The position numbers and the translations under genes were made by a program. The notes below the pieces were generated by a model. That model was given only the letters and a program-made list of their open reading frames with translations, was not told the DNA's origin and made no database searches. A stretch of 56,121 nucleotides of DNA, the filler included, from Sphacelaria rigidula (lineage: Eukaryota), in the NCBI GenBank assembly GCA_964200075.2. It is 5 parts of 5 records of this genome, joined end to end, with 100 filler letters (N's around TTAATTAATTAA, not from the genome) between each part and the next. Parts side by side here need not be neighbours in the genome. Positions count along the whole stretch, not along the records: positions 22,491 to 33,634 come from CAXNAA020005327.1; 4 more parts are not named here. The stretch is one strand, 5' to 3'. Positions 11,246 through 42,200 of this stretch are shown piece by piece (the stretch's first letter is position 1; the number at the start of each line of letters is the position of its first letter).

Positions 11246-11589
11246 CTCGACGATGACCTCCATCATCTTTGCCAGGCTTTGTCGAGACCGCGAGCCCACG
11301 CCAGCGTCGTCGGCGTAGAGCATATATATCCCGAAAATGGTAGACTGACGCCCAGAATAAATGGGACGACAACACACACAACACATTCTAAAACGCCCTC
11401 AATCAGTGAAAAATTGAATAAAATTTAACCTCACCCATTTTTCTTGGTTAATCACGACCTAGCAAGGTCCCGCACAAAGGTTTCAACCCACAAACACCAA
11501 ACGTGGGCGGATAAACGGCCTACTGTTCCGAATTTCCGCCGCCTCGGTTTTTCAAAGGTAAGATCGCAATTTTTCTCTTGGAGTTCGAA

Positions 11590-18900: not shown

Positions 18901-21883
18901 TTACAGGTTTGCTGGAGGAGGGTACTGCGACTGCAAAGATTGAGAAGTGAGTTTTTTCATCAAGTCAGGTAAAGGTGACAAACACAGAACACGGAGGAAG
19001 CAGAGCTACGCCGAATACCCACAAATACAAGGGTGAGAATCAAGCAAAGCCGTATCGAGACCGTAAATATGGTGCAGGCTCTGCACGCCAGACCTTGCTT
19101 TCTGTGGTGCGAGGCATGATGCGCGATGAAACGAAAGATGCTTGACGTTGTTTGTAAGTCGTAACCATAGTTTTCTAACAATAGTTGCACTTCGTCGCGA
19201 GCTCTCCAGGTCGTTGCCGCCATGGCCCCACATATATCCGTACCGCACATCAAATATGCCCACATCACCGCTTGCGATGGACTGAGTCATTGCGGTGGCG
19301 CCATCCGCGGCCATCAAGTGTATGTCTACCGCATCGCTGAATGGTTCACGCGTTAGCACCGACTTAGTATAAGACTAGGGGCGCCTTTCCCATGCATTGG
19401 TGCATGGCTGAACATACGTCAAGCAGACGCTGCATGTGTTTTTTCATTCGCCAACTTTGAGCGTACATTGATCACGTTTCCCTCCTGATTCCGCAGGTCG
19501 AAGAAGCAGGGGGCTTACGGAAAGGTTCCCGTCATATCTCCCGGGAAGGTGGCGCAGTTGTCACATGTGGATGAGGTAATGCCGGTTTCTCTGGAGTGCT
19601 TACCTTCCCGTATGTGCGTGGGTCGGCTTCAAAGGATGGAGATATCCATGGTCTGGGCGCGTGCGCAATAATCATCTCATATCTTGCCTGTAGGGCACAG
19701 TCGTACCCATCACTTTGCCGAGTTTCGAATTTTGAAGGTCCTGAATTAAAAAATACATTCTTCCACTTGTTCACAGATATGCAGCTAGTCATGGATTATG
19801 CGGTGGGATGGGGTCAGCTCGCTCACACACAACCGTGCACGTCATGTCGTGTTTGGTCGACTTGTATGCAGGTCTTTGCAGCGTTGTTGTACAAGGCTAA
19901 GGGCTCTTCAAGTAACGTTGATCGGAGTGATCCTGATGTTGCTTTCTGCGACGACATGCTGTGCAAGGTACGTGCCCGAGGCCACAGTTACCTCACATCA
20001 GTCAGGTTGGTACTACAGTACACGACTCTGAGAACAGCGAGGTAGGGGCAACTTTCGTGTCGTAGTTTGAATATGAAGAGCAGGGGGCGACGGCGCTGCC
20101 ACCAAAACGCGCTCATCTTATGGGTCGTCGACCGGGTGCCAAGTACAAAATATACTTGTATCTTTTTCAGCTCACGGCTTACCTGGGGTTGCAACGTTCG
20201 ACCTCGTTATATAACGTCGGTCTGACCGGAGTGCACAGCATGAAAAACGACTCATGACCCTACCCGGCCACCCAGCACGCTCTTATTATAATACATTATT
20301 CTATTTGATCCACCGATAGCATCTTTTTCATCGGTGTCCTGGTGGCATTTGTATTTGTTGCAATATCTCGCAGGTCAGCCGTTCTTTCGCCGCAGTGATT
20401 CAACAATTACCGAAGATACTGGTGCTTGATGTGCTTGTGTTTTATCTAGTGCTGCGTGGGCTGGACACCGTGGAAGACGACATGACCGCGTTCAAGGACG
20501 CCCAGGTGACTATAAAAGGCCGGTTTGCTGTCACCGCTTGCTCCCTATTTACTCAGCACGATCCCGTGACGTCAGACAATCGGTGGTGTCTGATAGCGCA
20601 AGTTGTATCACGTTGTGAGTGCGGCGTGTAGCGCACACTTCCTGTATTCGATTACTGTACGATATTTGGACATGCACAACACACATGCACAATCTCTCTC
20701 GCCTACCGATCGGATGATGGATGATCGATATTGCCATGTCCTCATCAGCGCCTTCTTCGTCTGGAACAGGTGAAAATAGACTTACTAACGAACTTTCACG
20801 AGACAGCACTAGTGGACAAGAATTGGAAACTCGAGGGAGTTGGAAATGGCGACGAGCGTAAGCTGCTTGAGCGTTTTCATTCTGTGACAGGCGTCTTCCA
20901 GTCTCTACCGCCGGCCAGCCAAGAGGTATGTAAGTGCGGTTGCACGCACCGTGTATCGGAATCGCATATCACTTGACCCACTATTACTATATACTAGACT
21001 AAACTATACTGTACTTGAATACTGTATTCTGATCATAATCCAGTCGTGGTCACAAGATGAACCCAAAAGTGTATGATGAATGAAGAGAAATTGGCGTGTT
21101 GCCTAATGAAGAAAGAGCCTCGTCAAAGGGGGAAAATGAAAAGAAGAGAAACACGAAAGTAAATCGAAAACGAGAGGAAGACGAAGGGAGGGAAAGAGGG
21201 AGAGAGAGGGAACGAAACAAGAGAAGGATAAGACAAGACGCGAGAAATATGCCCTTTGCTACCATGTAGTCAGTAGTGATGAGTACCGATCCCGAGAGAA
21301 AAAGAAATAAAAAGCTACTTCATGGTTTCCGGTAAGGAGGCCGCACAAAAAACGAAACACTAGAAAAGATAGCATGCCCGTTCCATCATTATGGACGGTG
21401 AGAGTTGAACGCGGGAACGGTCTGGGCTAGGGTATCGTGGCATAACACCCCTCATGCCTCACGGTCCCACCTGTTGGTGGTCCGCACCGGGGTGCGATCT
21501 GCACCCCAGTTTGTTTTGTACTAGACATCCGGTGCAAACTGGATGGGGTATTGACGGGATGTCAAATTTGTTCTGTGTCGATCGATACTACCGGCGGTGT
21601 TCGTTATATAGGCCAAGGCGAAGAAACTGTATCGTACATGTGACTTCGCCGTCGCTCCTCTGACGCGTGATCGCTAGGTTATTACGGATATCACTAAGCG
21701 CATGGGGGCCGGGATGGCCGAGTTCGTGTGTAAGGACCTTGGTCAAGGCACTGTATCCACAGCGGAGTACAACAAGTACTGCCATTACGTGGCTGGGCTC
21801 GTCGGAGATGGACTGACTCGACTATTCGCGGCTACTGGTGTTGAAGGACCTGAAGTACTGAATGCTCCGAACCTTTCCAACAG
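12963..21883 (+). CDS. IDI-SQS: Isopentenyl-diphosphate delta-isomerase / squalene synthase fusion protein, 3'-partial. Exons 12963-13019, 13549-13698, 15231-15314, 17606-17824, 18054-18150, 18745-18946, 19497-19575, 19872-19967, 20374-20505, 20770-20925, 21678-21883
   Basis: All junctions are GT-AG and phase-compatible (1478 nt). Type I IDI motifs: [53 protein letters not shown]. Linker [13 protein letters not shown] motifs: [34 protein letters not shown]. The remaining SQS exons are not found before the scaffold end. Confidence 0.95.
13738..14691. mobile_element. Tc1/mariner (pogo-like) non-autonomous element in IDI-SQS intron 2
   Basis: TA|CAGTGAGGGGCCCGATATAGTGCG...CGCACTATATTGGGCCCCCACTG|TA, with repeated subterminal TATAGTGCG motifs at both ends. 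Confidence 0.8.
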
Positions 21884-22390
21884 GTGAAGTGCGTTGAAAG
21901 GGGATACACTAATGATTTTCGACGCAGGACGCAGGTCTTCGAGCATGCCTAACGTCCGGTACTTGAATGCAGGAATATTATGAATGGGACTCTGTCATGA
22001 TGAAAAATTGAGACGGCACCTGCTAATCAGATTGTGCTCCCTCACCTTCCCGCGTTCCCAGCGAGATGATGAAGTTACGGTCTTGATAGCGCACATTTTG
22101 CAGTGCAAGAGACGATGTGACGGAAACACGGCAGAACACATGAATGGTCGAACGGAGTTGGTCGACTGCCATGAAGCGGCAGCACGCACGTAGCTTCAGC
22201 TGTTGGAGTGAGATATTGCCAACTTACTCGAAAGGGTGTTTGCTAGGGTTGGAGACTGGACCCAGTATTTACCGATAGTATTCCTGTACTGCGTCAGAGG
22301 GTGCCAGTACAGCCAGTACACGCCCATCTTACGTACGTCCTATATCATGCCTCCTAAACCACTTGCAAGCCCACCGAAACTGCGCCGCAT

Positions 22391-22490
22391 NNNNNNNNNN
22401 NNNNNNNNNNNNNNNNNNNNNNNNNNNNNNNNNNTTAATTAATTAANNNNNNNNNNNNNNNNNNNNNNNNNNNNNNNNNNNNNNNNNNNN
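22391..22490. other. Artificial scaffold-joining spacer
   Basis: N44-TTAATTAATTAA-N44. Confidence 0.97.
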
Positions 22491-22650
22491 GACTCGCCGA
22501 GCACAACACGGCGCTCCGCGCTTGGTGGTTTGAGTGCGAGCCTCGTCCGGTGAAAACCCGGCGTGCTCTGTCCCGGCTTTGTACGGATGCGAGGTCAATG
22601 GTCTTGTGACTATGGCATGGATGATCATGAGTACCCCCCCCCCTCCCCCC
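22491..22650 (+). mobile_element. Retroelement 3' end, family A
   Basis: Matches 6895-7175; ends ATGAGTAC followed by a C run. Confidence 0.7.
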
Positions 22651-23217
22651 CAAAAAAACTCAAGGAAAATGACGGTTTCGGTTGGCGCTGCAAACCCACA
22701 GAGTCGGTATTATGCGCTGAAAAAATATATACGTGATTCAGGGGCACCAGGTCGACAAAAAGATGATAGGGTATCATCGCTGTGCGGGGAAAGCAGGGTT
22801 CCGGGCTTGAACCTCATTTCATCGCACCACCTCATTTTATAGAATTGTTTGTTAATGGGTGTTGGTATTTCAAGTAATATAGCAGAAAACTAGCGAAGGT
22901 AAAAACGAGGGAGTGTACCATATGGAACAATATCGTCTTATACGAATGAGCAAGGCGCAGGAGAAAACATGATGGACACGGATTTCAATAAGGTGAGCAC
23001 AATACGCACGCGTCAGCCAACCCGCAGGAAGCAGGAAATACATTTTCTACGCCACTGTTGCTTCGTGAGGCGTATGAGGGCCGTTCAAGAATTTGTGTCG
23101 CACTTTGTTACGTCTTAGTCTACTATGTCGTTCTGTTCGACTTAGTTTTTCTTCTGCTCCTTCTTTTCTTCGGCGAGTGTTTCAGTTTTGTTTTTGTTGG
23201 GTACGTCTACCATGAGA

Positions 23218-23290
23218 CCACGGCTGGACCCCTGGGGGGTCAGTTAAAGTGGACAATCAAATAAAATCAAATATAATCAATCAATCAATC
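23218..23290 (+). mobile_element. Short retroelement 3' end with (AATC)n-like tail
   Basis: CCACGGCTGGACCCCTGGGGGGTCAGTT followed by AATC repeats. A second copy lies on the minus strand at 42690-42753. Confidence 0.55.
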
Positions 23291-23516
23291 TCGCGGATTT
23301 TGGCATCAATAATTGCCATGATCGACTCCGGTGGCGTCAGAAAAATCACACTCCTGGAAACCTCAACAATCACCAAGTTGGGAACCGCAGGGCACGGTGA
23401 CGTCCGACTACTCGAAAGAATGCTGAAAATCAGTGACAAAGGCATTATGGTTAGACGGCCTTGGGAACACGACCGATTCGAGGATAACACGGCAGTCTAG
23501 TAGGAACACGTCATAC

Positions 23517-26500
23517 TTGCCCGTTACACAGCAGCAGTGTTGCAGCAGCTGGAAGCACTCGTCTGTCGGCACATTGCGGGAAGCGTCTTCGGAAACGTCG
23601 TGCTCTTCCTGCCCGGCGGCGGGGTCGGGACCGTGACTGTCCGGTAAAAGGTCACTGTTCTTCACAGCCCTGAAAATGAAAGTACGTTGGTGATATGGCC
23701 CAGGTGGTCGGCAAGAAATCTAATCATGAACTCTCGCGATATCAATGCCGCGTGCGATCGAGGAAAAATACATTACAACGGTGCAGAGTCCGAACATTTC
23801 TCGCGAGCTTCTTCATTCTACGCTCACCAACGTACGCTGAGAAAGCATCAACGGTCCTACTAGAAAGTCACCGTCTACGTTCGCGGCCGGAAAACGCCAT
23901 ACTATGCCTTCAACGTTCGCTGAGTGTACTTGACTTGGTGGATCTTTCACGGCGGGAGGGGGGCGTAGCGAAGAGGCAGCGGTGCATCCAGGGAATCAGC
24001 CAGCCGATAGGAGAGTGTCTTGCTTGAAAGACTCTCACCTCAACCAGCGGTACACCCGCTTCAGGTCACGATCAGGCGACAGCTGCACCGAATCGTCCAC
24101 GATCTCGGCTACCTCCATATCAAGAGCGCTTGGTTCCACCTGTTCGTTTCCGAGATTGTTAAATACAAAAAGGGTAACGAACGAACCTGAGCACAAGCGA
24201 TGGAATGCGGGCGTCTGAACGAGTCTCCGTAACATGGTTGCTACAATGTCCACCAGTTGTGGGAAATACACTGCACACGAGAACGACAAGTATGCACGAG
24301 GTTTTCCCAGCGTAATTTTCTGCACGTAGATGTTTTTCGCCTGTGCGGTTTAAGCGCATAACTCGGGGTAGGAGTGATGCTACGGTAGGGGTGCACACAC
24401 ATTTCTGAGGTTAGAATTGTTAGGAGTCTTCTATCTCATCCAAAACACGATTTAAAAAACATATGAGAGTACACCAGGATTACTGATTCAATAAGCTAGG
24501 GATATCCCGAACGAATGTGCAAACGAGGATGCCCTGACCCATATGATTGTGCATCTATAATCGTAAGGAGCCCTGAACCAGACACGGTTTTGCGCAAAAA
24601 GTGCATCCCTACCACAGCATTTCTCGTAAGGAAGTGTGCTCATGTATTCACGAAGTGCAACCCATATATAGGAAAATGCTCCGTGGACAATGCCCAAGAG
24701 AATGAAATAGAAACGGACGACCTGAAAAGATGCTCTCGCTCTTCTTTGGTGGGGATGTGACATGCAATCGGAGTGGCAAGCCGTTCGCGCGGGAAAAGAT
24801 TGTTCCACCAGCGAGAGCATAGTGAAATAATGGCCGATGGAGCACTCCCTGATATTTCGTTGAAAAACTAAAACCTTACGCCAGGCGGCACAGTCACGGT
24901 GATAGCTTGAAAACGTCCATTTCATGACTACTATGCTCCGACCACACCGACCTTGAGCATCACCGTCGGCAACAGATGGCAGAAGTGCAGAGATTCTGCG
25001 ACGCGGTCGCCTTCCGAGTTAGGGACTTCCACGAAAAAGATATCCTCCGATTGTCGTGCCAGAATATCTCGCGTAAGCGGATCCCTGCCACGAAAATGAG
25101 TACCGTCGAGGAAATGTTTTGATCACGCTAATCGTTTATCCAAACGAATTGAATACTTGCTGCGGTTTGTTGGGGTACACGCAATGGTGCATCAGCACGA
25201 TTCTTTGCGAGCGTTCGCCGAGCTAAGATGTACCATGTCTCTACATTATTCCAAACACGGGCTGACCACAAAAGACCCGAGGCAGCAGTAGCACTCCCTG
25301 GCGGCCCCCAAATGTGAACCCAAGTACCCATAATAATCATCCATACGAATGTGATCCGGCAAACGCCGTCGGATACAATCACGGTGCGTACGCAGACTGA
25401 ATCTTTCTGCACTTGAATGTCAAGAGCATGACGAATGAAACGCCGGAAAATTAGAAGAGATATAAAGTGAAAGATACCATCTCACAGAGTAAACAACGTT
25501 GGGAAGGCGTAGGTGCCGATACCCGCGAAAACTTCGACGCGATGCTGGTGCACCGCCCAAATTGTTCCAACGTATCCGATGAATCGGCGAAGTGCCGGCT
25601 GACAAAACATGCTTCGTTGACTTCATACACACACAACGTCTCACCGGACGCAGCCCTCGATGAGGAGCTGGAAGAGGAAAGTGTTGCAGTCTGTGGGGGG
25701 CACATGCCCTAAATCGAGATGAACTGCGCGCGGTGTCGCGGGATTAGCCGCTCTAGATTTTAAAGCCTGGTGAAGGCCTCGGGGTGTGAACGACTCTCCC
25801 ACGGGCATCCGCACGTATTGTGGGGCGACGGACGTTGCTGCCTGAAAAAAGGCGCGCACGCGAAGACAGTAGGAGCATGCAGATAGGGAGGAAAATCGGC
25901 CATTTTCTCCTGTTCACCGTTTCCAATCGAGACCATTTTGGCATGCATCACCAACGTTCTACCGTTTTCACGGTACGACTGGTCCGTATCGTGTGCGCTT
26001 CTTTGTAAATTTTTCGTACAGGACAATACGTATAATAAGCACGACCATAAATGTCTTGCAAAGAGGGCGGATGCCAGCAGCATCGGCTGGCTGCAACCTC
26101 GCGCCTATCATGCACCGCATCCGTGACACAGACGATAGCATAACAGGCGAGCGTCAGCCCATGTTGTCCCACATCAGCCCCATTCCCCACCGTCGCAGAG
26201 TATCAACATGTTGAGAACGTGCATGGAAGATGCACTCAGGCTGTATTACCTTTCGTGGCTTTCAGAGCAGGTCAGTCGTTGAGTTGGTACCATACTTTAC
26301 ATATAAAATGACTATGACCCAGATGACCCACCTCGCGTCAACTGTAGAGGATCAAACTTTAGTGTCGGCGACGACGTACGTTGAAAAGTCTGTGTTCATC
26401 TCTTCACGGGAAACGTCACGAGTCACTAATCGAACCTACGGACGCCCCACCTGCTTCATGATGTAGTGAGTCTTCCCACCCCCGTTGGTGTCGCTTCGGA

Positions 26501-29500
26501 CGGCCATAGTCATACCTACAAGCAAGCAGAGGCACACACAACTCGATCAGACCCTACTATTAAAAGCCGCTGTCTGAATCTCCTGCGCCACACGCACGCG
26601 CACGCGAAGTTTGCGTATCCCGGACGAGTAGTGAGAGCGCCACAGTAATATTTGCCAGCGCGACCACGAAGATTTTAGTCGCATATGCAAGTCTCGGATC
26701 CGCGCGATATAAGGCTTCAGCATGCATGGCAGGTTTTCTCAGGCAACGACTCAACCTCTCCACCCCTACCCCACCGAATACTTCGTGGGACAGAAGCAAT
26801 GTCTCCCACAATCGATTTTTGGTCGCTTCACTGAAGCCTGGTGCTTCAGGAATTCACACCGGTTTATTGCCCACAAACTGAGGAGCGGCGAAACTGCACA
26901 CGTGACCGGTAGGGTACCTTGAGGTGGATCATTCAACATCCTCGTTGCGGTGGAAGCACAAAATGATGACGCTGAAACACCGTGCCGTTTCCTTCCCCTA
27001 AGATGCACCAAACCCATACTCTACCTCGGTAGTGCTTCTGGAGGGCGTACGAGACGGCCTTCCTCAGAGCGTCCGCAGGCAGCGGCGGCACTTCTACTAT
27101 ATGACCGCTCAGCCAGCTCAACAGGGCTTGTCGGGGTTCGCCAGATATCACCAGCAACACTGCTCCTCTGGCCACCCGATCGGGGCCGTTCTTACGTTCA
27201 TCGGGCCTGGTGATTTAGGCGGGGCGGGGTAGATTATCTGGCGCTGCTTGATCTGTTGCTTGCGTGTATGCTTTCGTTGTAAAAGTTACAGAACAATCCG
27301 AGCCACATTAGATATCGTTCGAGTCACACCGTAGTAGCTTTTTCCTGGGAAAATCGATATTGGTTCAGAGGGTGCTGTGGGAGAGACGTAAGGCGTGCTG
27401 AGAATCTAGATTTCGTTCTAATGTGCGGCAGGGATTGTGAATTCGTAGGTTGCTCTAGCGGAAAGTGAGACGGTAATGGGCATGTTCTGAGGTAGTCACA
27501 CACCACTCATCTCAGTGCCTCTGGGGCACGCTGCAATTGCTGGAAGTAGCAACCACGACCGGCAACCTGTTCACAAACGATTCCCTCGGAAATATTGCCG
27601 GCCATCAGGTCTCTTCAGGAGCAATGCTACTGTAGGAGTTGCACTTTTTGTTTCTGGGGCTCTTCTTGTTGGAGCACAAATATATGGAGATTCCTGTGCA
27701 ACCCAACTCTCCGGGGACCGGACTCCCAGAAAGATGGTGTTTGCACGCAGGGGTCTTTTCGTGAATCGGCATTATCTTCTGTCATTTTCTAGCAAAAGTG
27801 ATGCCAATTCACAAAATGATCCATCCTACACGACGAGCAGCTCCGAGAAACATTTTTGCTGAGAACGTGTGCAGCCCCTACCGTAGCATCACTCCCAGGC
27901 GTATCAACAGGAATAATCAGCATAATCACCTGGAACCTTTGCCATCCCCACCCAACCCACCGCCGCCGGCAAAAGTGTCTTCTCCATCATTCTCCAACAC
28001 CTTAGACCGCAGGTGCCCTAAAAGCTCAAATTGGGTACTGTACGACAGGCGATGTACATCTGCGATCACGAAGACTCCCTCATCGGTATCACCGGCAACC
28101 AACTCTACTCCCCTCTTCTCCCCAAGCCCATCCTCCGCAGCGACACCGGTGAGTTTCTCTCTTCCAGTACGGGTGGCAGCGGCCGTCCGCGATCGTCTCG
28201 CGGCGAATCTTCTCACGACAAGCTCCAATTCCTCTTCGGTAGTGTTGGATGTGCAAAACACTACTTCACCGGGTTGCGGTAGCCTACCCCTCCTCACGTA
28301 CAAGGAGAGCACGGCAGGGATTACTTCTTCATGTCCCGCAGTACATGCAGCGAATATACACTGCCCTCCACCGCCCCTACCCTCGCCACCACCTGGCTGG
28401 TCAACACCAATTCCACTTGCATCATCGCCGCTGCCGAGATTATGACTCTCAATCATCTTTGCGGTGGCAGTTTTCGCGGCAAATGTCATCGTGGTAGCCA
28501 CCAGAGGGTCCCATAGATGGGGCGTTTCCGGTAGCGGTGCGGGTACGTTCCGCTTAGCGGCAGCGATGGATCCATAGTTGCAACCCGCTGCATCTGAACT
28601 GTTTTGTGGCTGCAGCGCAATTGTAAGAGCTTCACCGAAGCTGTCTAGCATGTTTTCCATGACTCCGGTGTTTCTCTCGCCCGTATCGGATTGGTCTCCA
28701 CTATAGGGCGTTGTCGGCCTGATCCACAGTCTGAGTAGCATCATAGCCACGTCATGCTCGAGCTCGCGGTCGGTTGCGGGCACGACTAGGCGCAGGGTAG
28801 GCTGGAGTGCCGATATTGCTTCCTGGACATCCATGGGCTCTCTGAGTGATGTGCTGGTTAAACGGTGGCCGCTTAGCCGCAAAACGTCTTGCATGGTAAA
28901 ATGATTCACCAGTGGCCACCTGCGAACGGTGTCGGCCGGCGGTGGTAGTAACACGAGCAGTTTCGGCGAACACTGGTTGACAAAGACTAGAAGTAACGAT
29001 GAATTGTCGCGCTGCATGATACCGAAGGTGTGATCAACAAGCCCCAAGACTGCATCACACTACCATTGGGGGAGTTCGATTGTCAGTGAATCGTGCGTCC
29101 TTGGTGTGTGCTACGGTCTAACGCATACCAAGGTATGTTTGCACATCTGTCTCAAATGATATATATTTACACTTTTCGGTATATCCTAGACTGTGAAACC
29201 GTCCATCTACCATACGGAAGAAACCTAAAAAAAACGTCACCAAGCGCGAATACCAGAGGACAAAGCAAAGGGTTGGGCTCACCTTTCTCTAGCTTTCATG
29301 ACCAGCGCAGTCCATGTTTCGGCCCCGAAGCGCACGTCCTGAAGGGCCTCTACTACTGCGTCTTCTCCTTCCAGTTCGAATCGTCGCCTGTGACTCGGCA
29401 GCAAGCAGCGAAGAAGTCCTTGATCGTTACGATATCCACTGTGATACATTATTGAATTCTTTCGGCGCCATGTACGTCGCGTATGAATCACGCTGGGACT

Positions 29501-32500
29501 CACGAATATTCCCTGGTGCTAGCCTGTCCGGGGCGCTAATCGCGGCTCCAAGAAAAAGTGTCTGATATATCTGCGGAGATGTGTGCACACGTGGTCATCA
29601 CAGATAAGTCGACTTCATTCTGCCTAGCTCTAGAGCCGGCGAAAAAGCGATCTCAAACGTCGCCACATCAGGGATATATCAGCGTGCCTACCTTATTTCC
29701 CACTCTCCCTGGTAGCTGGGGTGACCGGCTTCGCACAGGCCTTGGACGGTGTAGAGAATATCCGCCATAACCTGATGGACGTATATCCCCAATCGCATCA
29801 CGAGGGCACCAAGCTTCGGACAGAATTACCCAGGGCTAAGAAAATCGATCGCTTGTTGACATGGACCGTGGTTGCAACTCTAGTGACGATATTCAGAACT
29901 TATTCAGGGCAGAAGTCATCGAGGTCATGCTATACGACTGTGTGACCTGCATGCTCTCAGTCAATGATTCCCGCACCTTTCGGAAAAGCCCACCGCGGGT
30001 TCCTGCTGTGATGACTCAATCAGCATACCTCAACCCGCAGTGCTCCCGACGACTACACGCTGTCATATTACGAGGTTCTCGAAAGGACTGGCTGCAATTT
30101 TATCGAGGCTACTGCGACGAGACAAATCATACTATTTGCCGACCACGTTGCGCGCATGCGTGAACAACGCCCCCTCGGAATCGTCATGAGTAAAGAAATG
30201 GCCGTCGGGAAGAGGATGACAGGCCGACCCGCGGAATGCATGTGACACCATGTCACTGGGTACTCCTCTGACGTCGGAAAGGACGAGACGTCATCAATGC
30301 AGATCGCCTGAGATGTTTCCGGATGGTACTGGGTCATAGAGGGGACTGAGATCTACATGGCAAACTAGACCACCACGTAAGTGAACGCGATCAGCGCGCG
30401 CCGTGCAAATAAACTCTTTGCCTTGTTACGAACAGAGGTTCCTCTGTGCTGATGGTCGCCGAAATGTCACAAGGAGCCCACCGGCAGTGTGCTCGCTGGT
30501 GCGTCTGCCGTCTCCCTCAAACCTTTGTTGCTTCTCTCCGTGGGTACCTGAGGATATTGTTCAGCTCTCACTTGGTGATCAAAATAATACCCTCCTGTCG
30601 TGTGCTGCTTGTTGCCCTACTTGCAACAACATCTCTCGAGTTTCTTGACTTTATTGGCAGATTTGACTTGTTTTGTTTTCACCACCCGGCGACCAACTCG
30701 GGGAGAGGTTCCTCTCTTCTGTTATCTTGACGTCTCTCGCTGTTGTTGCTCCATCTTGCTTTGCTTCGGAGTCTCAAAAGAAGCCCCTCAGTAAGCCCTT
30801 CTATCTCATGTACGGAATAGTAGTGGAGATACTGGAAAGATGAGCCTACGTCTATGACCAAGGGTTCGAGAGGTCAGGCTAATGCGTGCGAAAGTTATAA
30901 GAAAAGGCAAGGGAAACGTCGCAGAAACTCAAGTCTCAAATGTCGTACAACTTTACACCTGAAGTTGAGTATTCAAGCCTTCCACGGCAGCTTGCACGCC
31001 GTGCCCCCGATCTTTCTTCCAGCGAATCTCTTCACTCGGGGGTACCTCCATAATCGCCAGTCGGGCGCGTAGACCTAGCAACTCCTCTTTACTCTTCGTG
31101 CTCAAAAGTTCGTCCGATTCGTCCTCCGCCAGAAGATCAAGCGAGAGAGAGAACGACAGTTGACCGCAGCCGCCGCCGCCACAATATTCTCGGGAATATC
31201 TCATGGCGGCAGATTCCCCAGCACGAATGACAAATGTTCCGCGATCCAGGATATTCCCGAGAAGCCGGAGAGCTTGGATGCCCGGAGATACTGTTTGTTT
31301 CTCGAACAGCTGAGAAAGTGGGTAGAAGAACGCGCCCAGCATTCACGGCGACGAAGGCAGCCATGAGTAGACTATACCTCAACCTCTTAGCAACTAACGC
31401 CCTACATAACGAGCCGTGTGTGAAGGCGGGTTACACAGAGGCATCAGCACGAGAAAAGTAGGCAATTTCCCGGAGAAACGAGCATGTGAATTCTAGTATG
31501 CGTATTTCGGCACACATTGTGGGTCCAAGCATGGGGGGTGTGAACACTAACGATCAGCATTCGAACACGCATATTTTTCGTGCAAATAGCTCTAGGTCTT
31601 GAAGGGCTAACTAAGCGTGAGTAAGTTATCGATCCACGATGCCACGATTTCGATCGAATAGGAAAAAGCAAAGTGACAGCTTGCGTTGTGTGGTGCCCAG
31701 TCGTTTCGAATAATGTAGTGCTGACTGCCTTAAGCAGAAACTTCTGCGGCGAAAAGCTCGTTGTATGCCGCCGACTGTTTCCTCAATCCTGCTGAGCGAC
31801 GACCTGCCCTACATTACGATAACAACAACCTCATCATGCAAAGGCAAGATCTCATGCGCAAGCAATCGATTGTGATATCGCCCTTCGTGTTCCCTACCGA
31901 GCAAACTGCAATCCAATATCCAGATGCCTCCGATACTGGTGAAGCCGTGAAAATTCTATCTACTCCAACTCCAGTGAGCTGGACCCGTCAAAATAGCTGG
32001 TCGTATGAAGTGCAATTGTGTTTTAACCTATTGGGTGTGCTGAGGAAGCGCTGCGGAAGATGCTCAACTCAGGATTCCTATGGATGATTCTTCTTTATGT
32101 AGGGAACGGTTGCGTATAATGTTCTCTTTTGTAAGGGGAAGCACTTCCGCGTTAGATATAAAATATGGAAAAAGCATGCGGTAAAAGTAAATTACATGCA
32201 ATCGCAATACATCGATTGTGTGGTGAACAGAGTACCAAGTCACGATGTTAACAGAGAGAGGGATTCGACTATGCACCTGAAATCAGGGCTGAAGATCGGT
32301 GCGGCATCAAACCGTGAAAAACGACACGCAGTTGTAAATTTTGAGTCCCACATCAAGTTCTCACCTCCACCAAACCTCTAAATCTGCCGATCACATTGGC
32401 AACGTGCCAAACCGGACTTCCCTCTTTCTCGGCAGTCGAAGAGCTAAGACCCTCAGCCTCCGGTGTATCGCTGTGGTCATACTCTGCCAGTTGTACTGTG

Positions 32501-32901
32501 GAGAATGCACTCAAGAGCTCATCCAGGCCATTGAACGGTTTGTCAGGAAACAACACCGTGCTCAGCCTGTGATCCCCGCCAAGCACCGTCGAAGATTGAG
32601 CGAGGGCAGGGAGAGATTTGATGTAGTGAGCAGATTGATGCACCGCGCTACACGAGCTCTGGGGAAACCCCACCACAACACACAGCACTACATGACAAAT
32701 CTCAGACAAAACAACATGCCTTGTATCCCCTACCCCTTCCCAACAAAATCCCAAGCTCTCTCCAATGCTTTGCCGGTAACCAGTCGGAACTTGCCTCTCA
32801 CGGATCTCAACGAGCGAAGCGATAGACGAAAGGAGTCCGGGGTCGTCCGTGCAGGATCGACATACTTCTAGCGACTCCTTGAAGTTTTTGTCCGGTGGAT
32901 G
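23517..32901 (-). CDS. RNF213/mysterin-like giant AAA+ ATPase, internal fragment. Exons in transcript order 32901-32365 (possibly split by intron 32794-32567), 31309-30959, 29771-29692, 29387-29283, 28919-27930, 27206-27025, 26515-26451, 25841-25645, 25084-24952, 24139-24039, 23669-about 23517
   Basis: Phase-compatible GT-AG exon chain. Motifs appear in the order recalled for RNF213: LCEAGHPSY; RWPLVNHFT; RLPQPGEVVFCTSNTTEEELELVVRRF; FVIADVHRLSY; Walker A SDTNGGGKTHY; AVHLDLGH...NTFLFQLLIEG; IFFVEVPN; ECFQLL. Confidence 0.8.
27630..27883. mobile_element. MITE, same family as 2746-3008, in an intron of the RNF213-like gene
   Basis: TA|CTGTAGG...CCCTACCG|TA; the body resembles the reverse complement of 2746-3008. 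Confidence 0.75.
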
Positions 32902-33070
32902 CTGCAGGTCGGTGTCATCGATCATTGGGGACGCACGTGTTGCCCATGACATGCAGATGCGTATCTTTCAAACAAGAATTTGACTGGACAAAGATCGCGA
33001 GAGATGTGCCCGCTCGATGCATTGAAAGATGTTCAACAACGAAAACCTCGCGAAATTCACTCTTCCCCGC

Positions 33071-33072
<2 letters not shown>

Positions 33073-33129
<57 letters not shown>
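33073..33129. repeat. (TG)n microsatellite, about 28 units
   Basis: Perfect dinucleotide run. Confidence 0.97.
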
Positions 33130-33131
<2 letters not shown>

Positions 33132-33634
33132 TTTTTGAAGGGTTTGACGGTATGGTTCGGCGACTAACCCTTTAGGCGCGGGACCCCCTTCCGGAATAAT
33201 ATTGTTGACTTACTTTCAACGCCAGCGTACGCAACCCTGCGGTTGAGCATGACACTTTCTACGCCCCCCCCCCAAATCAGCCCAAAAGTGTCACGAAAAA
33301 ATTGCCATACAGCGCCTGATGTTTGGGTTCAGGCTGCATGAAGCGCCTCATATTAGCGACATTGGAAAGAACGAACCCGAGCGTGAGAATTCCCAGCTGG
33401 TCGTTGTGCTCGGCTTTTACCATTCCGATTTACGTGAAGATTTTGGGGGGGGCTATCGTAGAAAGTGTCGCAGGATCTCTCTGCTTGCGAGTATCGCCTT
33501 CAGAGACAAAATGCCTTGCAGTCCGTCGTCCCTGAACCGGGATTCACGCAATATTTTTCAATCAATAACAACAAATTGTGAGAATTGAGGTTTAACTTCG
33601 AGATGAGGCTCAAGCCTAAAACAGTGCTTTCCCC

Positions 33635-33734
33635 NNNNNNNNNNNNNNNNNNNNNNNNNNNNNNNNNNNNNNNNNNNNTTAATTAATTAANNNNNNNNNN
33701 NNNNNNNNNNNNNNNNNNNNNNNNNNNNNNNNNN
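33635..33734. other. Artificial scaffold-joining spacer
   Basis: N44-TTAATTAATTAA-N44. Confidence 0.97.
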
Positions 33735-35824
33735 CATCCTCAATGAAAAGCACCATCCTCAACATAGATGATCGGCTGTTAATTCCTGCGACAGTTTTTT
33801 TTCTTGAATTGGATTCATTCAGGCGAATCGACCGACAAAAAATCATGAATAAACGTTTGTTGTTGTTGTTGTTGCTGTTGTTTTCTTGTCAAAACGATAG
33901 CGTTAACATTACCACCCAAGCTCGAACATGAGGCCCTCCGAGTGCCCTCGGGCAGGCGGGACAAAGATACATGCAGCTGTTGTTCTCCAGGCGAAATGTG
34001 CGTTGCTTTTTGCTCGAACCGGCGCCTACAGCGCATTTTGAACTGTAAAGGCAAGGTATCTTCCAGTTGAGAGGACCTCTGGTCTCGGGCTTTGAACCCC
34101 GAGATCCCCTCGTAATGTCTGGGACACTTTCGTATGACTGCCGCCTTAGTCGGAAGAATCAGAAACATTAATGTCGCGATTGACGGGAAATCCTGTTTTG
34201 CTGAAAAGTCAGTGGAGTGTTCGGGGAGTCAAAGATCGGCTCTTCGTGCCGAGCAAACCTGGAATTGGGTTCTCCAGGTTCTTCGTCTGAGTTCAGGTGG
34301 TTGAGATGGAGGTTGACCTTTTATCGGCAGGGCTGCGGAAGACTGGAGTAATGACGGCGGCAGTCATTTCTCACGCCGTCTTCGAGAGTGGGGAGACGAA
34401 ATTTCAAAATTTGACGCACGTGCTCTTCTTCAAGGCATGCCCGAGGTCGCCAGTTTGTGGGCCTAAATAGGTCCGATCGCCTTCACCGGTTTCTTGGCGT
34501 GCCCTTTCGGGGTCCGCGGGATTGCTTGGTTTCGGTCGGCTTCACCGGATTCTTGGCGTACCCGACCGTTTCGCGGACCACGGAAGGGGACGGCAAGCAA
34601 CGGGTGCAACAACCGACCGAAACTCGTGAAGCTTCATACCTGGCGACCGCGGGCTTGCCTTTAAACATGTGCGTAAAAATTTCGTTTCCCCCAACTCTGG
34701 AAAACGACGCGAGAAATTGAGCGAACATGAAATTGTTCCGAGAATGTGTTGGAGGCTAGTAGTCCCCGAGGATCCCCAAAATCACATTTGGTGAATGTCT
34801 ATATTCATTTACAAGTGTTGAAAAAAGGAAGCTCCACACACGTGCCCCTGGTGACTAACTCGAAACCGTTAGTAGGTGTGTTCATTCAACCTCGCTAGTT
34901 TTCGCAGGTTTCTTGGGGTTTCTGGCCAGTTCTGGCGGCTGGGTATCCCGACAAAACGGTGAACACGAACCAGGGGAGAATATCCAATCACTAGCCACGT
35001 TAATCCTTAGACAGCACGCTTCGCCTCGGAATAGTTTCACAGGCTGACAGTCCGGAGACATCCAGGGGTGTTCAGGGGGGGGGAGGGGGAGGGGGGGGAA
35101 TGTCTGTCCGTAGAGCAGCCGGAAGGCGCACAAAGTGTGTAATTGGAAGTTTCCGGCGGAAGATTCCAAGCCAGGAACGAGGCCCGAGAGGCGTGGAATG
35201 ACTATTCTGACCTATCACGACTGTCGAAATGGTCACGTTGTCCCCCTACATGTGGACTACAAGTGGAGTACTTGGCTTTCTAGCGGTATTTCTCATGTTG
35301 GTCATGGCAGTTCAACCATGGACTAATGACATTGGCACAAGTAACGTGTTTTTGCTCTGCTCGTGGGCTATGCCGCATGTCTGACCCTCCATGTGTTGCC
35401 AGCATAGCTTCACACTGTTGTGTTGTGGTGAAACAGACATCAGCATCATGCAGTAGACTGTGTTCAGTGGAGAGCTATGACATGCTGACCGTTTCTTGCC
35501 GTTGTATCCAGCGCAGACCTGCAGCACACATACTGACTCTGCTCGCGATGAGCTGCAGGATCGATCAGGGGTTCTCCGGGACTATTTTCTATATACTTGC
35601 CCAACATCCAGATGTTTATGGGAGAGGCGTTTTGGGTAGCGAAAAAAAAGCTGTTTTGGACCCCGAATGTGGCACTGTCCAACTCATTACACCTGCGGGG
35701 GGGGGGGGGGGGGGGGGACTTCTTTTTTTTCTGCCTTTTTCGTTTGACCCATGCCCCNNNNNNNNNNGGGAGCGTGGGTCTGCCTCTTTTGTTGCTTGCC
35801 TTAGTCGTTTGACCATTGACCTGC

Positions 35825-36161
35825 GGGGGGAGGGGGAGGGCGCGTACTCATTCGTTGCTAGCCTTGGTCGTTTGACCATTGACCACGCATCCCTTTCGGG
35901 ACGAACCACCATTCCTACTCCCAATAGAGATACCTCTATCATTCCGGCGCCCATTACGTTTCTTCCATACATGACACAAAACCGTTTACGTATCTTCTCC
36001 CAGTCGTGTTTCGCCGTCTGTGGCCACCATATGTCTACAAGTATAACCATCGGTTTCTCTCCACTGTCTGGTGCATCGAACGAATCCACACCACCTTCGT
36101 TTACGTCCCGCATTTCCCCCTCTAGCGCATTCCGTTCCTTCTTTTATAGTCCACATTCTGC
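35825..36161 (-). mobile_element. Decayed 3' end of a non-LTR retrotransposon (family L), longest copy in the window
   Basis: Translates to a degenerate ORF2-like C-terminus (ECGL*KKERNALEGEMR...DIWWPQTAK... then GCVVNGQTTKAS after a frameshift), followed by ATGAGTAC and a C run. Shorter copies with the same 3' end lie at 3625-3680, 8713-8790, 35768-35820, 42025-42200 and 44979-45060. Confidence 0.65.
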
Positions 36162-37309
36162 AAGTCGCCCTGCGGGGGAGGGTCGCTCTCTAAGGGTTTA
36201 AGCTCTACGCAGGAACTCGTGTGCGAATAGCGGTTCAATGAGTTATTAAAAAAGCGGGCCAAGAAATGCAGCAAATGTACCTCTTTCTATTTTGAGAATG
36301 TGGGGCAACAGTGAAGTGGCATGAAGTCGTGATTAGGGTAAAGTTCTCATTCACTTGTTACCTCGGGCATGTCAAGGAATACGTGTCCGCAAAATTATTT
36401 CTTCCATTTCCGGAAATCGACCGTCTCAGAAAAAAGGAAACATGAAATTCTTCTCGGAATGTGAGGCATCCGATGGCTATGGACCCCAAAAAAACGGTAA
36501 AACTGAGGATGAAGAATCAAACCTTACTCACAGACCCTTACCGGCGCCCTGGACAAAAATGCAGTGAACGAGAAAATGTTCCGAGATTGCTAAGTGCACG
36601 TTGGGGTTACGGCAGGGAAATCGCACCCCGTATTGTAGACTATGGGCGATTGATTCTATATGTGATTCAACCCTCCTCCGAGGCTGTATTACTGACTTCT
36701 GTAGTAGCTATGATCGGCACCGCACCCTTCCTAAGGCCAAGTGTCACCACGGTTCCCGGCGCGCATCTCGTACCAAAAACATGCGGCGCATCTACCAGAA
36801 GTTGACCGCCAAACCAGCGGCGTGGTTGCTTTTCGGAGATGCACTTCGCCTTGAACTCGCACACTTTGAGACCCCCTGTTTTGCACGTCTATATTGTAGC
36901 ACCCCGTCACACAACCCGGCACGGAGAAGGAAGCGACGTCACAACGTATGTACCTCACATGCATACATGGCACTCTTTGCACGCTTGAAGTTTGTCTGGA
37001 TCTGCTTCGTGTGCGCTGACAAAGCATTGGCCGACAGTAGTTCGGTTTCTTGGGCGCATCAACGGAGATCACCGGACAGCCGGAGAAGCGATAAGTATGT
37101 GTGCGGCTCCAGTGATGCGACTGTGAAATGTTGGATCCTGTCACTGGTACACGCAGACGGAGATGCCATAAATTTACCTCGGTCGCAGAAGTTGCGGCAC
37201 TACTCACGAACGGCGCGTGACGAGGAGCTGGTAGACCACGACACCACAATTATGATAACGCTCTGGCTAGGCTTGTACCGATTGTGCTATTAAGGCCGGA
37301 TGTTATTGT

Positions 37310-38249
37310 ACACAGATTTTTGGCCCATGGATTGTTCACTTTTGGGACGTTTGAGCCACTTTTTGACCCCCAAACAGGGAAAACCGCCAACACACGTCTT
37401 GGACACTTTGTCTCACCCCACTGAGAGGAACTTAGCCCACTTTCCAGATTCGCTTGGCTCCAAGGTTTCGAGAGCAGACGCTAGGGCCGCTCCTTATAAT
37501 GGACAAAAATAAAAATCTCGAAAAGCGCCTTTTTCGAGCTTTTATATCGTTTTACGCCCCAAAAGACAGCTAGTCGGAGTTTGACACCCTGGAATGACTC
37601 GCTCTACTAGTTGAGGCGGTTCCAGGACATCTTCTCATTTTCCGGTGACCGCAGTTTTCATTTTGGCCGAACAAATTTTTTTGGCCAAGAACGGTGAAAA
37701 ACAGTCGAATCTAGAAAAAAATCGCCACTTTTCTCTGGACGTGACTGACTTTTACCGTTCTTGGACAAAAAAAATGTTTGGCTAAAGTGAATACTGCGGC
37801 TACCGGGAAACGGGAAGATGTCGTGGAACCGCCGCAACTAGTAGACTACGTCATTCCAAGATGTCAAACTCCGCCTAGTTCTCTTTTGGGGCGTTGAACG
37901 ACGTGAAAGCTCCAAAAGGGCACTTTTTTAAATTTTTATTCTTGTCTATTTTAAGGAGCGGCCTGAACAACAATCCGTGTGCAATAATAGCTACAGCGAT
38001 TTCCACAGATTAGTGGACAAACTGGCGGGGTGATCGGCAAACACAGCTTTTTTCACACGAATTATTGTTCAGCGGCCAATCTCGAAACCTCGGAGCCAAG
38101 CAAATCTGACAAGCAGACTAGGCTCCTCTCGTGGTGTGATGCAAAGTGTCAAACACGTGTGTTGACGATTTTCCCTGCCTGGGGATTCAAAACTGGGTCA
38201 AACGTCAAATGTCCCAAAAGTGAAGAATCCGTGGGCCAAAAATCTGTGT
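37310..38249. mobile_element. About 940-bp foldback element
   Basis: 37310-37472 pairs with 38080-38249, and 37485-37705 pairs with 37745-37963 (imperfect). Confidence 0.8.
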
Positions 38250-38858
38250 GCCATACTACGAGCATAATTTCGAGCATAATTTCACGTTGAAAGCATTAAA
38301 GGCAAAGCGATCCGGTAAGGAGCATAAATGGCACAGGATTTCAGCGAGTAGCACGAAGAAGAATGGTATACACATTACTAGCATAATCGAGCATAATTTT
38401 CCGTCGATGGGCTGGTAAGCTAGCCTTATATGCTTGCCTCCTCCCATATTTTGGGCGAATAGCTACGATTGACTCAATCTCAAGAAAATTAGTTGACTCT
38501 ACTGACAAGACGAGCACGGGCTTCTAAGTACTACAGTTTTCCTCTCCTATCTCTGTGGGGGGAAGGTTTCGGACGTTCCCGACGTTGCGCAACCCCGCTC
38601 CCATAAGCGGCTTCCACGAAAGGTCATCCTCCAGCACGAGGCAGCGTGCCATCTCGCTTGTCCCTACAACGGGACCGCTCTGTCCCGAGCATCTTTTATG
38701 TGCTGCACGGTCACTCCGTTGCATCCACCAGCGCCGACTTGACGATCAGAGCACAAATAGCGCGCCCCCCACCTTGGATGACCAGTCTTCTGCAGGAGAG
38801 CTTAGTGTCTTGTATATGAGAAGAGACGTCTGTGACTTACTCATGTATCCGTTATATA

Positions 38859-39615
38859 CTCCCTCTGTCCGGGGATATAAGATCGGTATGGATGTCCGGA
38901 ATATAAGATCGGTTTCTACTATATGCCCCGAAGTAGGTGAGCTAGCCGTTGTAGCAGGTCCTACAGGTTGTATATATGATAGTAGATGAAACTGGATGAA
39001 AAGGAAATAATCCGCTCTAAAGGGGGGGGGTGTCATTATCCCCGGGTAGGTGAAATTGTGGAAAATCCAGCAAAATTGTACTCGGCCATAGAAAAAGACG
39101 AACTGCGGACGCTGAAGATGCATCCCTACAGACGAAAGGAACGGCTTTCTGGGCGTGTTCAAGAAAGCAACGCCCCGCATATGTCGAGTGGAAAAGCTCG
39201 GACATCAATTTCGTGGGGGCCGGGGGGTCAAGTTGTCGTGTGGACAGCGTCGTGTCGCGGCCACAGCGGTAGTGGATTGTCGCTCTTCACAGATGCCGAA
39301 TCACGTGCAGCTCTTTCGAAGCTATCGAGGTTCTTGCGTTTTGACACCTGGGAGGCACTCCCAGCAGAGGACATGCCTCACCAGAGGATTGGAAGGCTTT
39401 TGACCTGGTCCTCAAAGTTTGTGTGGTGATTTCGAGCGACTTGTGCCGGGGTGGGCTACAATTTTTTGGTTTGTGCTAAAACAAAAAACCGGTTCTACGG
39501 GCTCGGCGTGAGTGCGGCGAAACCGGGCAAAAAAACGGTTCAGAAAAAATGTCCCGTGGTCCCAAGATGTCCCACTTTTTGTCCATATCGTTCTTATATT
39601 CCCGGACAGAGGGAG
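38859..39615. mobile_element. Stowaway-like (Tc1/mariner) MITE
   Basis: 34-bp TIR CTCCCTCTGTCCGGG(G/A)ATATAAGA(T/A)CG(G/A)TATGGA with 3 mismatches; flanked by TA and TG. Confidence 0.8.
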
Positions 39616-39690
39616 TGTATACTTAATCTTATCGAGTATATGTGTAAATATTTGAAAAAAAAAGCGTCGTGCGTTGTGTCACAAAAACAG

Positions 39691-42024: not shown

Positions 42025-42200
42025 GGGGAGGGGGGGGGGAAGAGGGGTACTCATTTGTTGCTCGTCTTGGTCGTTTGACCATTGGACACGCATCCCTTTT
42101 GAGACGGAGCACCCTCTGTCCGGGGGGGGAGGGGCAGGTGCGTCCTTATTTGCTTCTTGCTTCAAGTCATCCAACAATTGACCACGCATCCCTTTCGAAA
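42025..42200 (-). mobile_element. Two stacked family L retroelement 3' ends separated by C/G tracts
   Basis: Both match TTGCTTGCCTTAGTCGTTTGACCATTGACCACGCATCCCTTTCGAGAC loosely. Confidence 0.6.

What the first reader, a model, noticed from the sequence alone, without database searches (positions are those of the whole stretch)
23517..32901. RNF213/mysterin-like giant AAA+ protein in a probable brown alga
Seen: 11 phase-compatible minus-strand exons (about 900-965 codons), several missed by the ORF track, including a 65-nt exon (26515-26451) carrying an intact P-loop GGGKT. Knowledge: the motif order (LPxxxEVxxC...EExxLxxRR, AD.LSY, GxGK, HLD, FLFxLL) matches my recollection of the stalk to AAA1-AAA2 region of animal RNF213, a dynein-like AAA+/E3 ligase that ubiquitylates intracellular pathogens. 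Inference: an expressed algal homologue, possibly a cell-autonomous defence factor. I know of no functional description in this lineage. The AAA3-6 and E3 parts are outside the scaffold.
Basis: partly seen in the sequence, partly recalled or inferred. Interest (0 to 1): 0.78.

Follow-up and report, generated by a model that had tools for sequence, protein, structure and literature searches.

The report
Brown-alga RNF213-family gene fragment
This is a real, multi-exon piece of a brown-algal gene for a relative of RNF213, the giant ATP-driven ubiquitin ligase that marks invading microbes in mammals, but only the front part of its motor ring lies on this short contig and its role in the alga is untested.

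Summary
They include exactly the 65-nt exon 26515-26451 with the GGGKT P-loop.

The RNF213 reading also holds:
- The largest exon alone hits only RNF213 among solved structures (E 1e-4).
- A profile of this exon plus 29 relatives hits only RNF213 (E 2e-31). It aligns collinearly from the end of the linker through AAA1 into AAA2.
- The algal GGGKT lies on the AAA2 Walker A, and HLDLG on the Glu-less Walker B site.
- Long relatives carry dynein-type AAA domains and the RZ finger.

The organism is a brown alga. A deposited 140-aa partial product, named by its source as Sphacelaria rigidula, is encoded exactly here.

The window is a chain of ~11.1-kb contigs joined by N/TTAATTAATTAA spacers, so AAA3-6 and the E3 part are simply off this contig.

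Expression and a defence role are not shown. I found no usable RNA data, and the fold search was inconclusive.

Relatives occur in many protists, and this scan had already noted one in Naegleria. Verdict: a new member of a known family, badly under-annotated, of moderate interest.

The parts
32795..32931 (-). Exon 1 of the fragment (linker region).
   Evidence: tblastn with P0083 residues 1230-1275, 63% identity. Junction search, model, acceptor sequence.
32365..32566 (-). Exon 2 (linker). The 228-nt intron before it is itself open and in frame.
   Evidence: P0083 residues 1275-1353; junctions 32795|32566 and 32365|31309.
30959..31309 (-). Exon 3 (linker).
   Evidence: P0083 residues 1343-1464, E 3e-19. 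Eight other homologues also hit here. Donor GTGTAA.
29692..29771 (-). Exon 4 (linker).
   Evidence: P0083 residues 1464-1491, 61% identity; profile hit E 0.024, positions 11-38.
29283..29387 (-). Exon 5 (linker).
   Evidence: Junction search against P0083. It is read through without a break in the profile alignment of the spliced model.
27961..28919 (-). Exon 6: end of the linker and first half of AAA1. Its P-loop position is degenerate (CTAGHEEV), and it holds the motifs LPQPGEVVFC..EEELELVVRR and ADVHRLSY. The deposited annotation removes 96 nt (28170-28075) as an extra in-frame intron.
   Evidence: RNF213 is the only significant solved-structure hit. Profile E 5e-62. P0002 blocks. The intron ends are read from the sequence.
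27025..27159 (-). Exon 7: rest of AAA1 (VLLVISGEPRQ...PPLPADALRKAV). An alternative acceptor lies 8 nt upstream (exon start 27167).
   Evidence: Profile E 1e-18. The junction is as in the deposited product P0002.
26451..26515 (-). Exon 8, 65 nt: Walker A (P-loop) of AAA2, TNGGGKTHY.
   Evidence: profile E 2e-7. In one search it aligns with the RNF213 AAA2 motif RAGVGKSLY.
25645..25841 (-). Exon 9: AAA2 core, with AVHLDLGH at the Walker B position (Asp present, catalytic Glu absent) and FLFQLLIEG.
   Evidence: Profile E 3e-13. In one search it aligns with RNF213 IFHIDIS...LFKLLIL.
24952..25084 (-). Exon 10: AAA2 continued (DIFFVEVPNS...HLLP).
   Evidence: Profile E 3e-11; 20 homologues hit here.
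24039..24139 (-). Exon 11 (weakly conserved; SALDME...LKRVYRWLR).
   Evidence: Profile hit E 0.78 on its own, but it is read through in order in the spliced alignment. The phases fit: 24952|24139 phase 0, 24039|23669 phase 2.
23517..23669 (-). Exon 12, the last one on the contig (PTDECFQLLQHC). The 3' edge is the donor GTATGA after 23517, or alternatively GTAACG after 23528. The gene runs on beyond the contig.
   Evidence: P0063 residues 2437-2478, E 0.05; profile E 0.06, positions 518-555; sequence.
22391..22490 (.). Artificial spacer (44 N + TTAATTAATTAA + 44 N) marking the low-coordinate end of the true contig 22491-33634.
33635..33734 (.). Artificial spacer of the same N-run layout (44 N, 12 bases, 44 N) marking the high-coordinate end of the true contig; its 12 middle bases were not read.

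Best explanation
The stretch is a contig-truncated part of an apparently intact brown-algal gene, most likely of Sphacelaria rigidula, for a member of the RNF213 (mysterin) family of giant AAA+/E3 ubiquitin ligases. The 12 exons encode about 870 residues: the C-terminal part of the linker, the degenerate AAA1 unit, and most of AAA2.

Shown:
- homology and collinearity with RNF213;
- a P-loop-less AAA1;
- an AAA2 with an intact Walker A lysine but no Walker B glutamate, the same pattern as mouse RNF213, where AAA2 holds ATP without hydrolysing it.

Inferred from the family:
- the missing downstream exons encode AAA3-AAA6, a hinge and an E3 module with an RZ finger;
- AAA2-bound ATP glues AAA2 to AAA3;
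- nucleotide binding in the ring switches on ubiquitin transfer.

A role in cell-autonomous defence is only an analogy with mammals.
For: 1. Direct hit. Exon 6 alone matches RNF213 chains only, at E 1.1e-4.

2. Profile hit. The profile of exon 6 plus 29 homologues gives RNF213 for 9 of 9 significant solved-structure sequences (E 2.2e-31). It aligns profile positions 45-617 to 7oik_A 1630-2236 in one stretch, with Walker A on Walker A.

3. Splice model. The model aligns as one unbroken domain to a profile containing no window sequence: 514.6 bits, residues 222-867 to profile positions 4-550.

4. Long relatives.
- P0043 (4,123 aa) matches the model over residues 9-868. It hits human and mouse RNF213 at E 4e-168 to 1e-162 and has an RZ finger and AAA_5.
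- P0080 and P0084 also carry RZ fingers.
- P0050, from the related alga Phaeothamnion, continues into a dynein-type AAA domain about 600 residues after the AAA1 motif. That is the spacing seen in RNF213.

5. Gene integrity. No stop in 872 codons, and the splice sites are canonical.

6. Host. P0002 is encoded exactly here: 139 of 140 residues in three blocks, and its contig has the same length as this one, 11,144 bp. The Pylaiella littoralis product P0083 is 45% identical over 781 alignment columns.

7. Truncation. The spacers show the contig ends at 22491 and 33634.
Against: - Only about a sixth of a typical family member is present. AAA3-6, the E3 module and the RZ finger could not be examined for this species.
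- No named brown-algal protein with those parts was found: searches returned none named as a brown alga, and one search gave no names.
- Pairwise similarity to vertebrate RNF213 is confined to one 48-residue motif. The wider alignment rests on the profile.
- Exons 4, 11 and 12 are individually weak (E 0.02-0.8).
- The first intron needs a GC donor.
- The deposited annotation calls only 140 aa here and splices exon 6 differently.
Confidence: 0.9

Rival explanations
1. It is RNF213-derived but dead: a partial duplicate or decaying pseudogene copy, not part of a working gene.
For: - The deposited annotation has only a 140-aa partial product here.
- A second, 93%-identical 41-aa product on another contig of the same species (P0013) shows more than one copy or haplotype.
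- The contig ends in high-copy sequence (table 2, bins 22491-23606 and 33279-33634).
Against: - 872 codons across 12 exons have no stop or frameshift.
- All 11 introns keep phase, with AG acceptors and GT/GC donors.
- The family's invariant residues and the Walker A lysine are kept.
Confidence: 0.08
2. It is a different AAA+ protein (dynein, midasin or MoxR type) that merely shares P-loop motifs with RNF213.
For: Sources label some relatives 'MoxR-like ATPase' or 'EcfA2'. Pfam finds only generic AAA models in relatives.
Against: - The profile search returned RNF213 only, with no dynein, midasin or MoxR at E<=0.01.
- The strongest conserved motif lies in the P-loop-less AAA1 of RNF213, not in a generic ATPase motif.
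- Relatives carry the RZ finger.
Confidence: 0.01
3. The contig comes from a contaminant (an epiphyte or other protist in the culture), not from the alga.
For: RNF213-like proteins occur in many marine protists and metagenomes. The contig is short and unplaced.
Against: - By far the closest long relative is from another brown alga: Pylaiella, 45% identity, against 26-36% for the other long relatives listed (P0035, P0043, P0050, P0056, P0080, P0081, P0084, P0093, P0121).
- The other close fragments (44-56% identity) have no names.
- The gene is split by 11 introns.
Confidence: 0.02

Closest known systems
Mammalian RNF213 / mysterin (solved structures 6tax, 6tay, 7oik, 7oim, 8s24, 9g08)
   Same: - The order of linker end, AAA1 and AAA2 is collinear.
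- AAA1 has no P-loop and shares the motif GH.EV.P..L..Y......P...EV..C...T.EE.EL..RR.
- AAA2 has a Walker A GK(S/T) and an H.D. site lacking the Walker B Glu (PMC7311170 passages).
   Different: - Pairwise identity outside the AAA1 motif is too low for phmmer to detect.
- The P-loop reads NGGGKT rather than AGVGKS.
- There are long lineage-specific loops in exon 6.
- The gene is cut into many small exons.
- Whether a RING, RZ finger and E3 shell follow is unknown for this species.
Protist RNF213-like giants: P0043, P0080 and P0084 (unnamed sources); P0050 Phaeothamnion confervicola; P0035 Bigelowiella natans; P0047 Picozoa; P0131 Cercozoa; P0134 Polarella glacialis
   Same: - They align with the whole 872-residue model at 23-36% identity.
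- Dynein-type AAA domains follow at the expected distance.
- An RZ finger is present in P0043, P0080 and P0084.
   Different: - None has been studied.
- No RING model hit P0043 or P0080 at E<=0.01.
- Six of the 120 listed relatives of the Phaeothamnion protein carry a U-box (PF04564), five of them together with the RZ finger (precomputed domains).
Naegleria RNF213 homologue noted earlier in this scan (e1-670194, e1-670193)
   Same: It is another non-animal RNF213-family giant. This suggests that the family is old and widespread.
   Different: It is reported as intronless, RING-less and without the ATP-hydrolysis residues. I did not check those notes. Here the gene is intron-rich and only the AAA1-AAA2 part can be seen.
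Cytoplasmic dynein and midasin/Rea1 (six AAA units in one chain)
   Same: General design of a single-chain AAA ring with an upstream linker (PMC7311170 passages). Pfam dynein-type AAA models hit the relatives.
   Different: There is no detectable sequence match to the profile of this region. In dynein AAA1 is the main motor, whereas here AAA1 has no P-loop.

Membership tests
RNF213 (mysterin) family | Significant, collinear sequence homology to the RNF213 linker-AAA1-AAA2 region, with RNF213 as the best and only solved-structure match | tested here: met
   E 1.1e-4, and only RNF213 is below E 1. E 2.2e-31, 9 of 9 hits are RNF213, in one alignment of about 570 positions; spliced model against a window-free profile, 514.6 bits.
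RNF213 (mysterin) family | AAA1 without Walker A or Walker B | tested here: met
   CTAGHEEV stands where RNF213 has CGHSEV, with no GK(S/T). ADVHRLSY aligns with RNF213 FADQLSY. Passages of PMC7311170 say that AAA1 lacks both motifs.
RNF213 (mysterin) family | AAA2 with a nucleotide-binding P-loop but no catalytic Walker B glutamate | tested here: met
   NGGGKT (exon 8) aligns with AGVGKS, and HLDLG aligns with HIDIS. Sensor I was not mapped. Supplementary file 1 of PMC7311170, which marks these residues, could not be opened.
RNF213 (mysterin) family | Catalytically competent AAA3 and AAA4, and six AAA units in all | not testable with these tools
   These parts lie off the 11,144-bp contig. 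No whole genome is held, and the rest of the window is other contigs. Relatives P0043, P0080, P0050 and P0035 have AAA_5 downstream.
RNF213 (mysterin) family | RZ-type zinc finger (catalytic ubiquitin-transfer site) | not testable with these tools
   Off the contig. It is present in relatives P0043 (E 7.5e-19), P0080 (E 4.8e-18) and P0084. No named brown-algal protein with it was found.
RNF213 (mysterin) family | E3 module with a RING domain | not testable with these tools
   Off the contig. No RING model hit P0043 or P0080 at E<=0.01. Some relatives have a U-box.
RNF213 (mysterin) family | Ubiquitylation of pathogen surfaces or an interferon-type defence role | not tested
   This needs experiments. 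The mammalian function is known to me only from abstracts in search listings (PMC12440826, PMC12075652).
Dynein heavy chain / midasin | Sequence homology of this region to the dynein or midasin AAA1-AAA2 region | tested here: not met
   No dynein or midasin chain appeared at E<=0.01 with the family profile, or at E<=10 with exon 6 alone.

The most novel reading that the evidence does not exclude
RNF213-type AAA+/RZ-finger ligases are an ancient eukaryotic cell-autonomous immune device, not an animal invention. Brown algae would then keep a working copy, possibly with a U-box in place of the RING. That copy would tag intracellular invaders such as phaeoviruses, oomycete or plasmodiophorid parasites, or endophytic bacteria in an ATP-gated way.
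Probability: 0.15. Interest if true: 0.7.

Novelty: new member of a known kind. Interest (0 to 1): 0.35.

Why it matters
RNF213 is studied almost only in vertebrates, as the moyamoya disease gene and as the ligase that ubiquitylates bacterial lipopolysaccharide.

A clear family member in a multicellular brown alga, next to relatives in chlorarachniophytes, cercozoans, dinoflagellates, picozoans and Naegleria, supports a very old origin for this machine. It also offers a photosynthetic, experimentally accessible lineage in which to ask what the ancestral job was.

Practically, the deposited annotation of this contig captures 140 of at least 872 coding residues. Genes of this family are therefore likely to be missed or shattered in fragmented algal assemblies.

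I found no paper linking RNF213 to brown algae, Ectocarpus or stramenopiles in the searched library. Four further searches returned nothing on algal or protist homologues, judged from titles and abstracts.

Tried and rejected
- **Word-index search.** The 377-aa ORF against longer proteins found nothing. The exhaustive search then found 81 relatives.
- **Pfam.** Six window ORFs gave no family above cut-off.
- **Whole genome.** None is held.
- **Rest of the gene.** tblastn with 26 long relatives at E<=5 gave only noise outside 32940-23517. This is explained by the contig chain.
- **Plus-strand hit 3638-3841.** E 0.001 with one protein, but the family profile did not find it. I treat it as unproven.
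- **Fold test.**
  - AlphaFold2 of exon 6 with alignment A1 gave a mean pLDDT of 69.5 and pTM of 0.48.
  - Foldseek against the PDB gave no match at E<=0.001. RNF213 entries had the highest probabilities (0.85, 0.69, 0.60), but at E 3-8 over only 114 columns.
  - In the VIA second look, 6 of the 57 chains were not aligned (over 3,000 or under 30 residues, or not in that library) and no RNF213 row came back; the best other Z was 4.7.
  - The result is inconclusive. The spliced peptide itself could not be sent to the folding tool.
- **RNA evidence.**
  - No RNA holder was listed.
  - Two runs guessed to be RNA (X5, X7) put almost nothing on the gene, and no contig joined exons.
  - X1 contig pieces cover much of the gene with 0 differences, but X1 may be the source sample, so this is not independent support.
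- **Names for the closest full-length relatives.** None were given.
- **Repeats within the contig.** None at least 30 nt long.
- **Nine large ORFs on the other contigs.** Only a sub-threshold NUDIX hit.
- **Direct phmmer of the Pylaiella protein against the PDB.** Only the same 48-residue motif, E 0.008.
Full report
**What the window is**

The 56-kb window is not one scaffold. It contains five pairs of 44-N runs, each pair separated by 12 bases; the one pair read (22391-22490) has TTAATTAATTAA in the middle. That is an all-frame stop spacer of the kind used to chain unplaced contigs.

The pieces are 1-11145, 11246-22390, 22491-33634, 33735-44878 and 44979-end, each close to 11.14 kb where both ends are seen. 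The finding lies on the 11,144-bp piece 22491-33634. Anything beyond those limits is other DNA.

**The observation**

- The longest minus-strand ORF (29059-27929, 377 aa) was searched against 1.84 billion representative proteins. It gave 81 relatives at E<=0.001, 23 at E<=1e-10 and 7 at E<=1e-30.
- Laid back on the window by tblastn, these 81 proteins gave 182 HSPs. Of these, 181 are on the minus strand between 32934 and 24943, in the same order as in the proteins.
- With the Pylaiella littoralis product P0083 and other relatives as guides, I searched every GT/GC...AG combination around each gap.
- The resulting model has 12 exons: 32931-32795, 32566-32365, 31309-30959, 29771-29692, 29387-29283, 28919-27961, 27159-27025, 26515-26451, 25841-25645, 25084-24952, 24139-24039 and 23669-23517.
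- This is 2,618 nt, 872 codons and no stop. The 11 introns are 228-1187 nt, all with AG acceptors, with ten GT donors and one GCAAGT donor.
- A profile made from 29 relatives, with the window row removed, aligns to the spliced model as one unbroken domain: 514.6 bits, residues 222-867 to profile positions 4-550. So the junctions read through as the family expects.
- The same profile scanned over all 2,493 six-frame ORFs of the window finds eight collinear minus-strand ORFs on this contig. Five have E between 5e-62 and 2e-7 and three are weak (0.024-0.78). Nothing convincing appears elsewhere.
I find 12 exons and 872 codons. The small exon 24139-24039 is weakly conserved and easy to miss.

**What it is**

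- Exon 6 alone hits only RNF213 chains among solved structures: nine distinct sequences at E 1.1e-4 to 7e-3, with the next hit at E 1.5. The match is a 48-residue motif at 7oik_A 1796-1845.
- An alignment of exon 6 with 29 relatives (A1) turned into a profile hits RNF213 and nothing else: 9 of 9 distinct sequences at E<=0.01, best E 2.2e-31. It aligns profile positions 45-617 to 7oik_A 1630-2236 in a single stretch.
- By the domain limits in PMC7311170 (passages read), mouse RNF213 has the N-arm at 1-1290, the linker at 1291-1774 and the AAA core at 1775-3405. The aligned stretch is therefore the end of the linker, AAA1 and much of AAA2. The construct's numbering offset from the native protein was not checked.
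- In that alignment the family's NGGGK(T) falls on the RNF213 AAA2 Walker A (AGVGKS). The family's H-x-D falls on HIDIS, and LF.LL on LFKLLIL.
- The window has NGGGKT, HLDLG and FLFQLL at these places. AAA2 thus keeps the P-loop lysine and lacks the Walker B glutamate.
- AAA1 has CTAGHEEV where a P-loop would be.
- The same paper's passages state that mouse AAA1 lacks Walker A and B, and that AAA2 binds ATP but lacks the catalytic residues. The algal pattern is the same.
- I could not open the paper's Supplementary file 1, which marks the motif residues.

**Transitive evidence from long relatives**

- P0043 (4,123 aa) aligns with the spliced model over residues 9-868. It hits human and mouse RNF213 at E 4e-168 to 1e-162 and carries an RZ finger (PF20173, E 7.5e-19) and AAA_5.
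- P0080 (4,781 aa) and P0084 (4,932 aa) also have RZ fingers.
- P0050, from the ochrophyte alga Phaeothamnion confervicola, has the AAA1 motif at 1284-1346 and a dynein-type AAA domain at 1893-1967. This is the spacing expected for AAA3.

**Whose gene it is**

- P0002 is a 140-aa partial product that its source names as Sphacelaria rigidula, on a contig of 11,144 bp. It is encoded exactly by the window in three blocks, 139 of 140 residues, with the odd residue spanning a splice site.
- The best long relative is P0083 of Pylaiella littoralis: 45% identity over 781 columns.
- Other named relatives come from Bigelowiella natans, Picozoa, a cercozoan, Polarella glacialis and various animals.
- A 41-aa product on another contig of the same species is 93% identical (P0013), so there is a second copy or haplotype.
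- The deposited model removes 28170-28075 from exon 6 as an in-frame intron. This cuts out DEGV, which is conserved in Pylaiella, so I keep those bases as coding.

**How it most likely works**

Shown here: an open, spliced reading frame for the linker end, a dead AAA1 and a nucleotide-binding but non-hydrolysing AAA2.

Inferred from the family:
- The contig breaks within introns at both ends, at high-copy sequence.
- The complete protein would go on to AAA3-AAA6, a hinge and an E3 module with an RZ finger.
- ATP at AAA2 would tie AAA2 to AAA3 (PMC7311170 passages).
- Nucleotide binding in the ring would activate ubiquitin transfer (abstract of PMC12075652, seen in search listings).

A defence role is an analogy only.

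**What failed or stayed open**

- The fold test was inconclusive.
- No RNA holder was listed, and the two possible RNA runs did not cover the gene. Expression is therefore not shown.
- No named brown-algal protein with the C-terminal modules was recovered.

**Novelty**

- RNF213-like giants are plainly widespread in protists. This scan had already noted one in Naegleria (not re-checked by me).
- I found no paper in the searched library that connects RNF213 with brown algae, Ectocarpus or stramenopiles. Four further searches gave nothing relevant by title or abstract.
- Verdict: a correctly recognised, real, under-annotated new member of a known family. Interest is moderate, because only a fragment is present and no new mechanism is visible.

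Noticed in passing
window 11146-11245, 22391-22490, 33635-33734, 44879-44978: The window is a chain of ~11.14-kb contigs. They are joined by 100-bp spacers of 44 N, 12 bases and 44 N; in the one spacer I read (22391-22490) the 12 bases are TTAATTAATTAA. Neighbouring genes in the window are therefore not physically linked.
   Followed up: yes
window 28075-28170 (minus strand): The deposited partial product P0002 treats these 96 nt inside exon 6 as an in-frame GT..AG intron. Homology to Pylaiella (conserved DEGV before FVIADVH) favours keeping them as coding.
   Followed up: partly
window 3638-3841 (plus strand, another contig): Weak tblastn similarity (E 0.001, 35% over 72 aa) to the AAA2 part of one RNF213-like protein (P0034). 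The family profile did not find it. It may be a decayed fragment or chance.
   Followed up: partly
window 33063-33138: A (CA)n microsatellite lies just upstream of the first recognisable exon. Reads appear cut there.
   Followed up: no
window 22491-23606, 24351-24722, 27699-28070, 33279-33634: Contigs of very high depth overlap these bins in all four runs laid. This points to dispersed repeats at both contig ends, in intron 10 and in or near intron 6, which probably explains why the assembly broke here. No repeat of 30 nt or more recurs within the contig itself.
   Followed up: partly
proteins P0118, P0119, P0120, P0129, P0130, P0139: Six of the 120 listed relatives of the Phaeothamnion RNF213-like protein carry a U-box (PF04564) in the precomputed domain lists, five of them together with the RZ finger. 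This hints that some protist members use a U-box where animals have a RING.
   Followed up: no
window 17465-17995 (plus strand, another contig): An ORF with a sub-threshold NUDIX hit (E 0.0011, 19.5 bits against a cut-off of 21.1).
   Followed up: no
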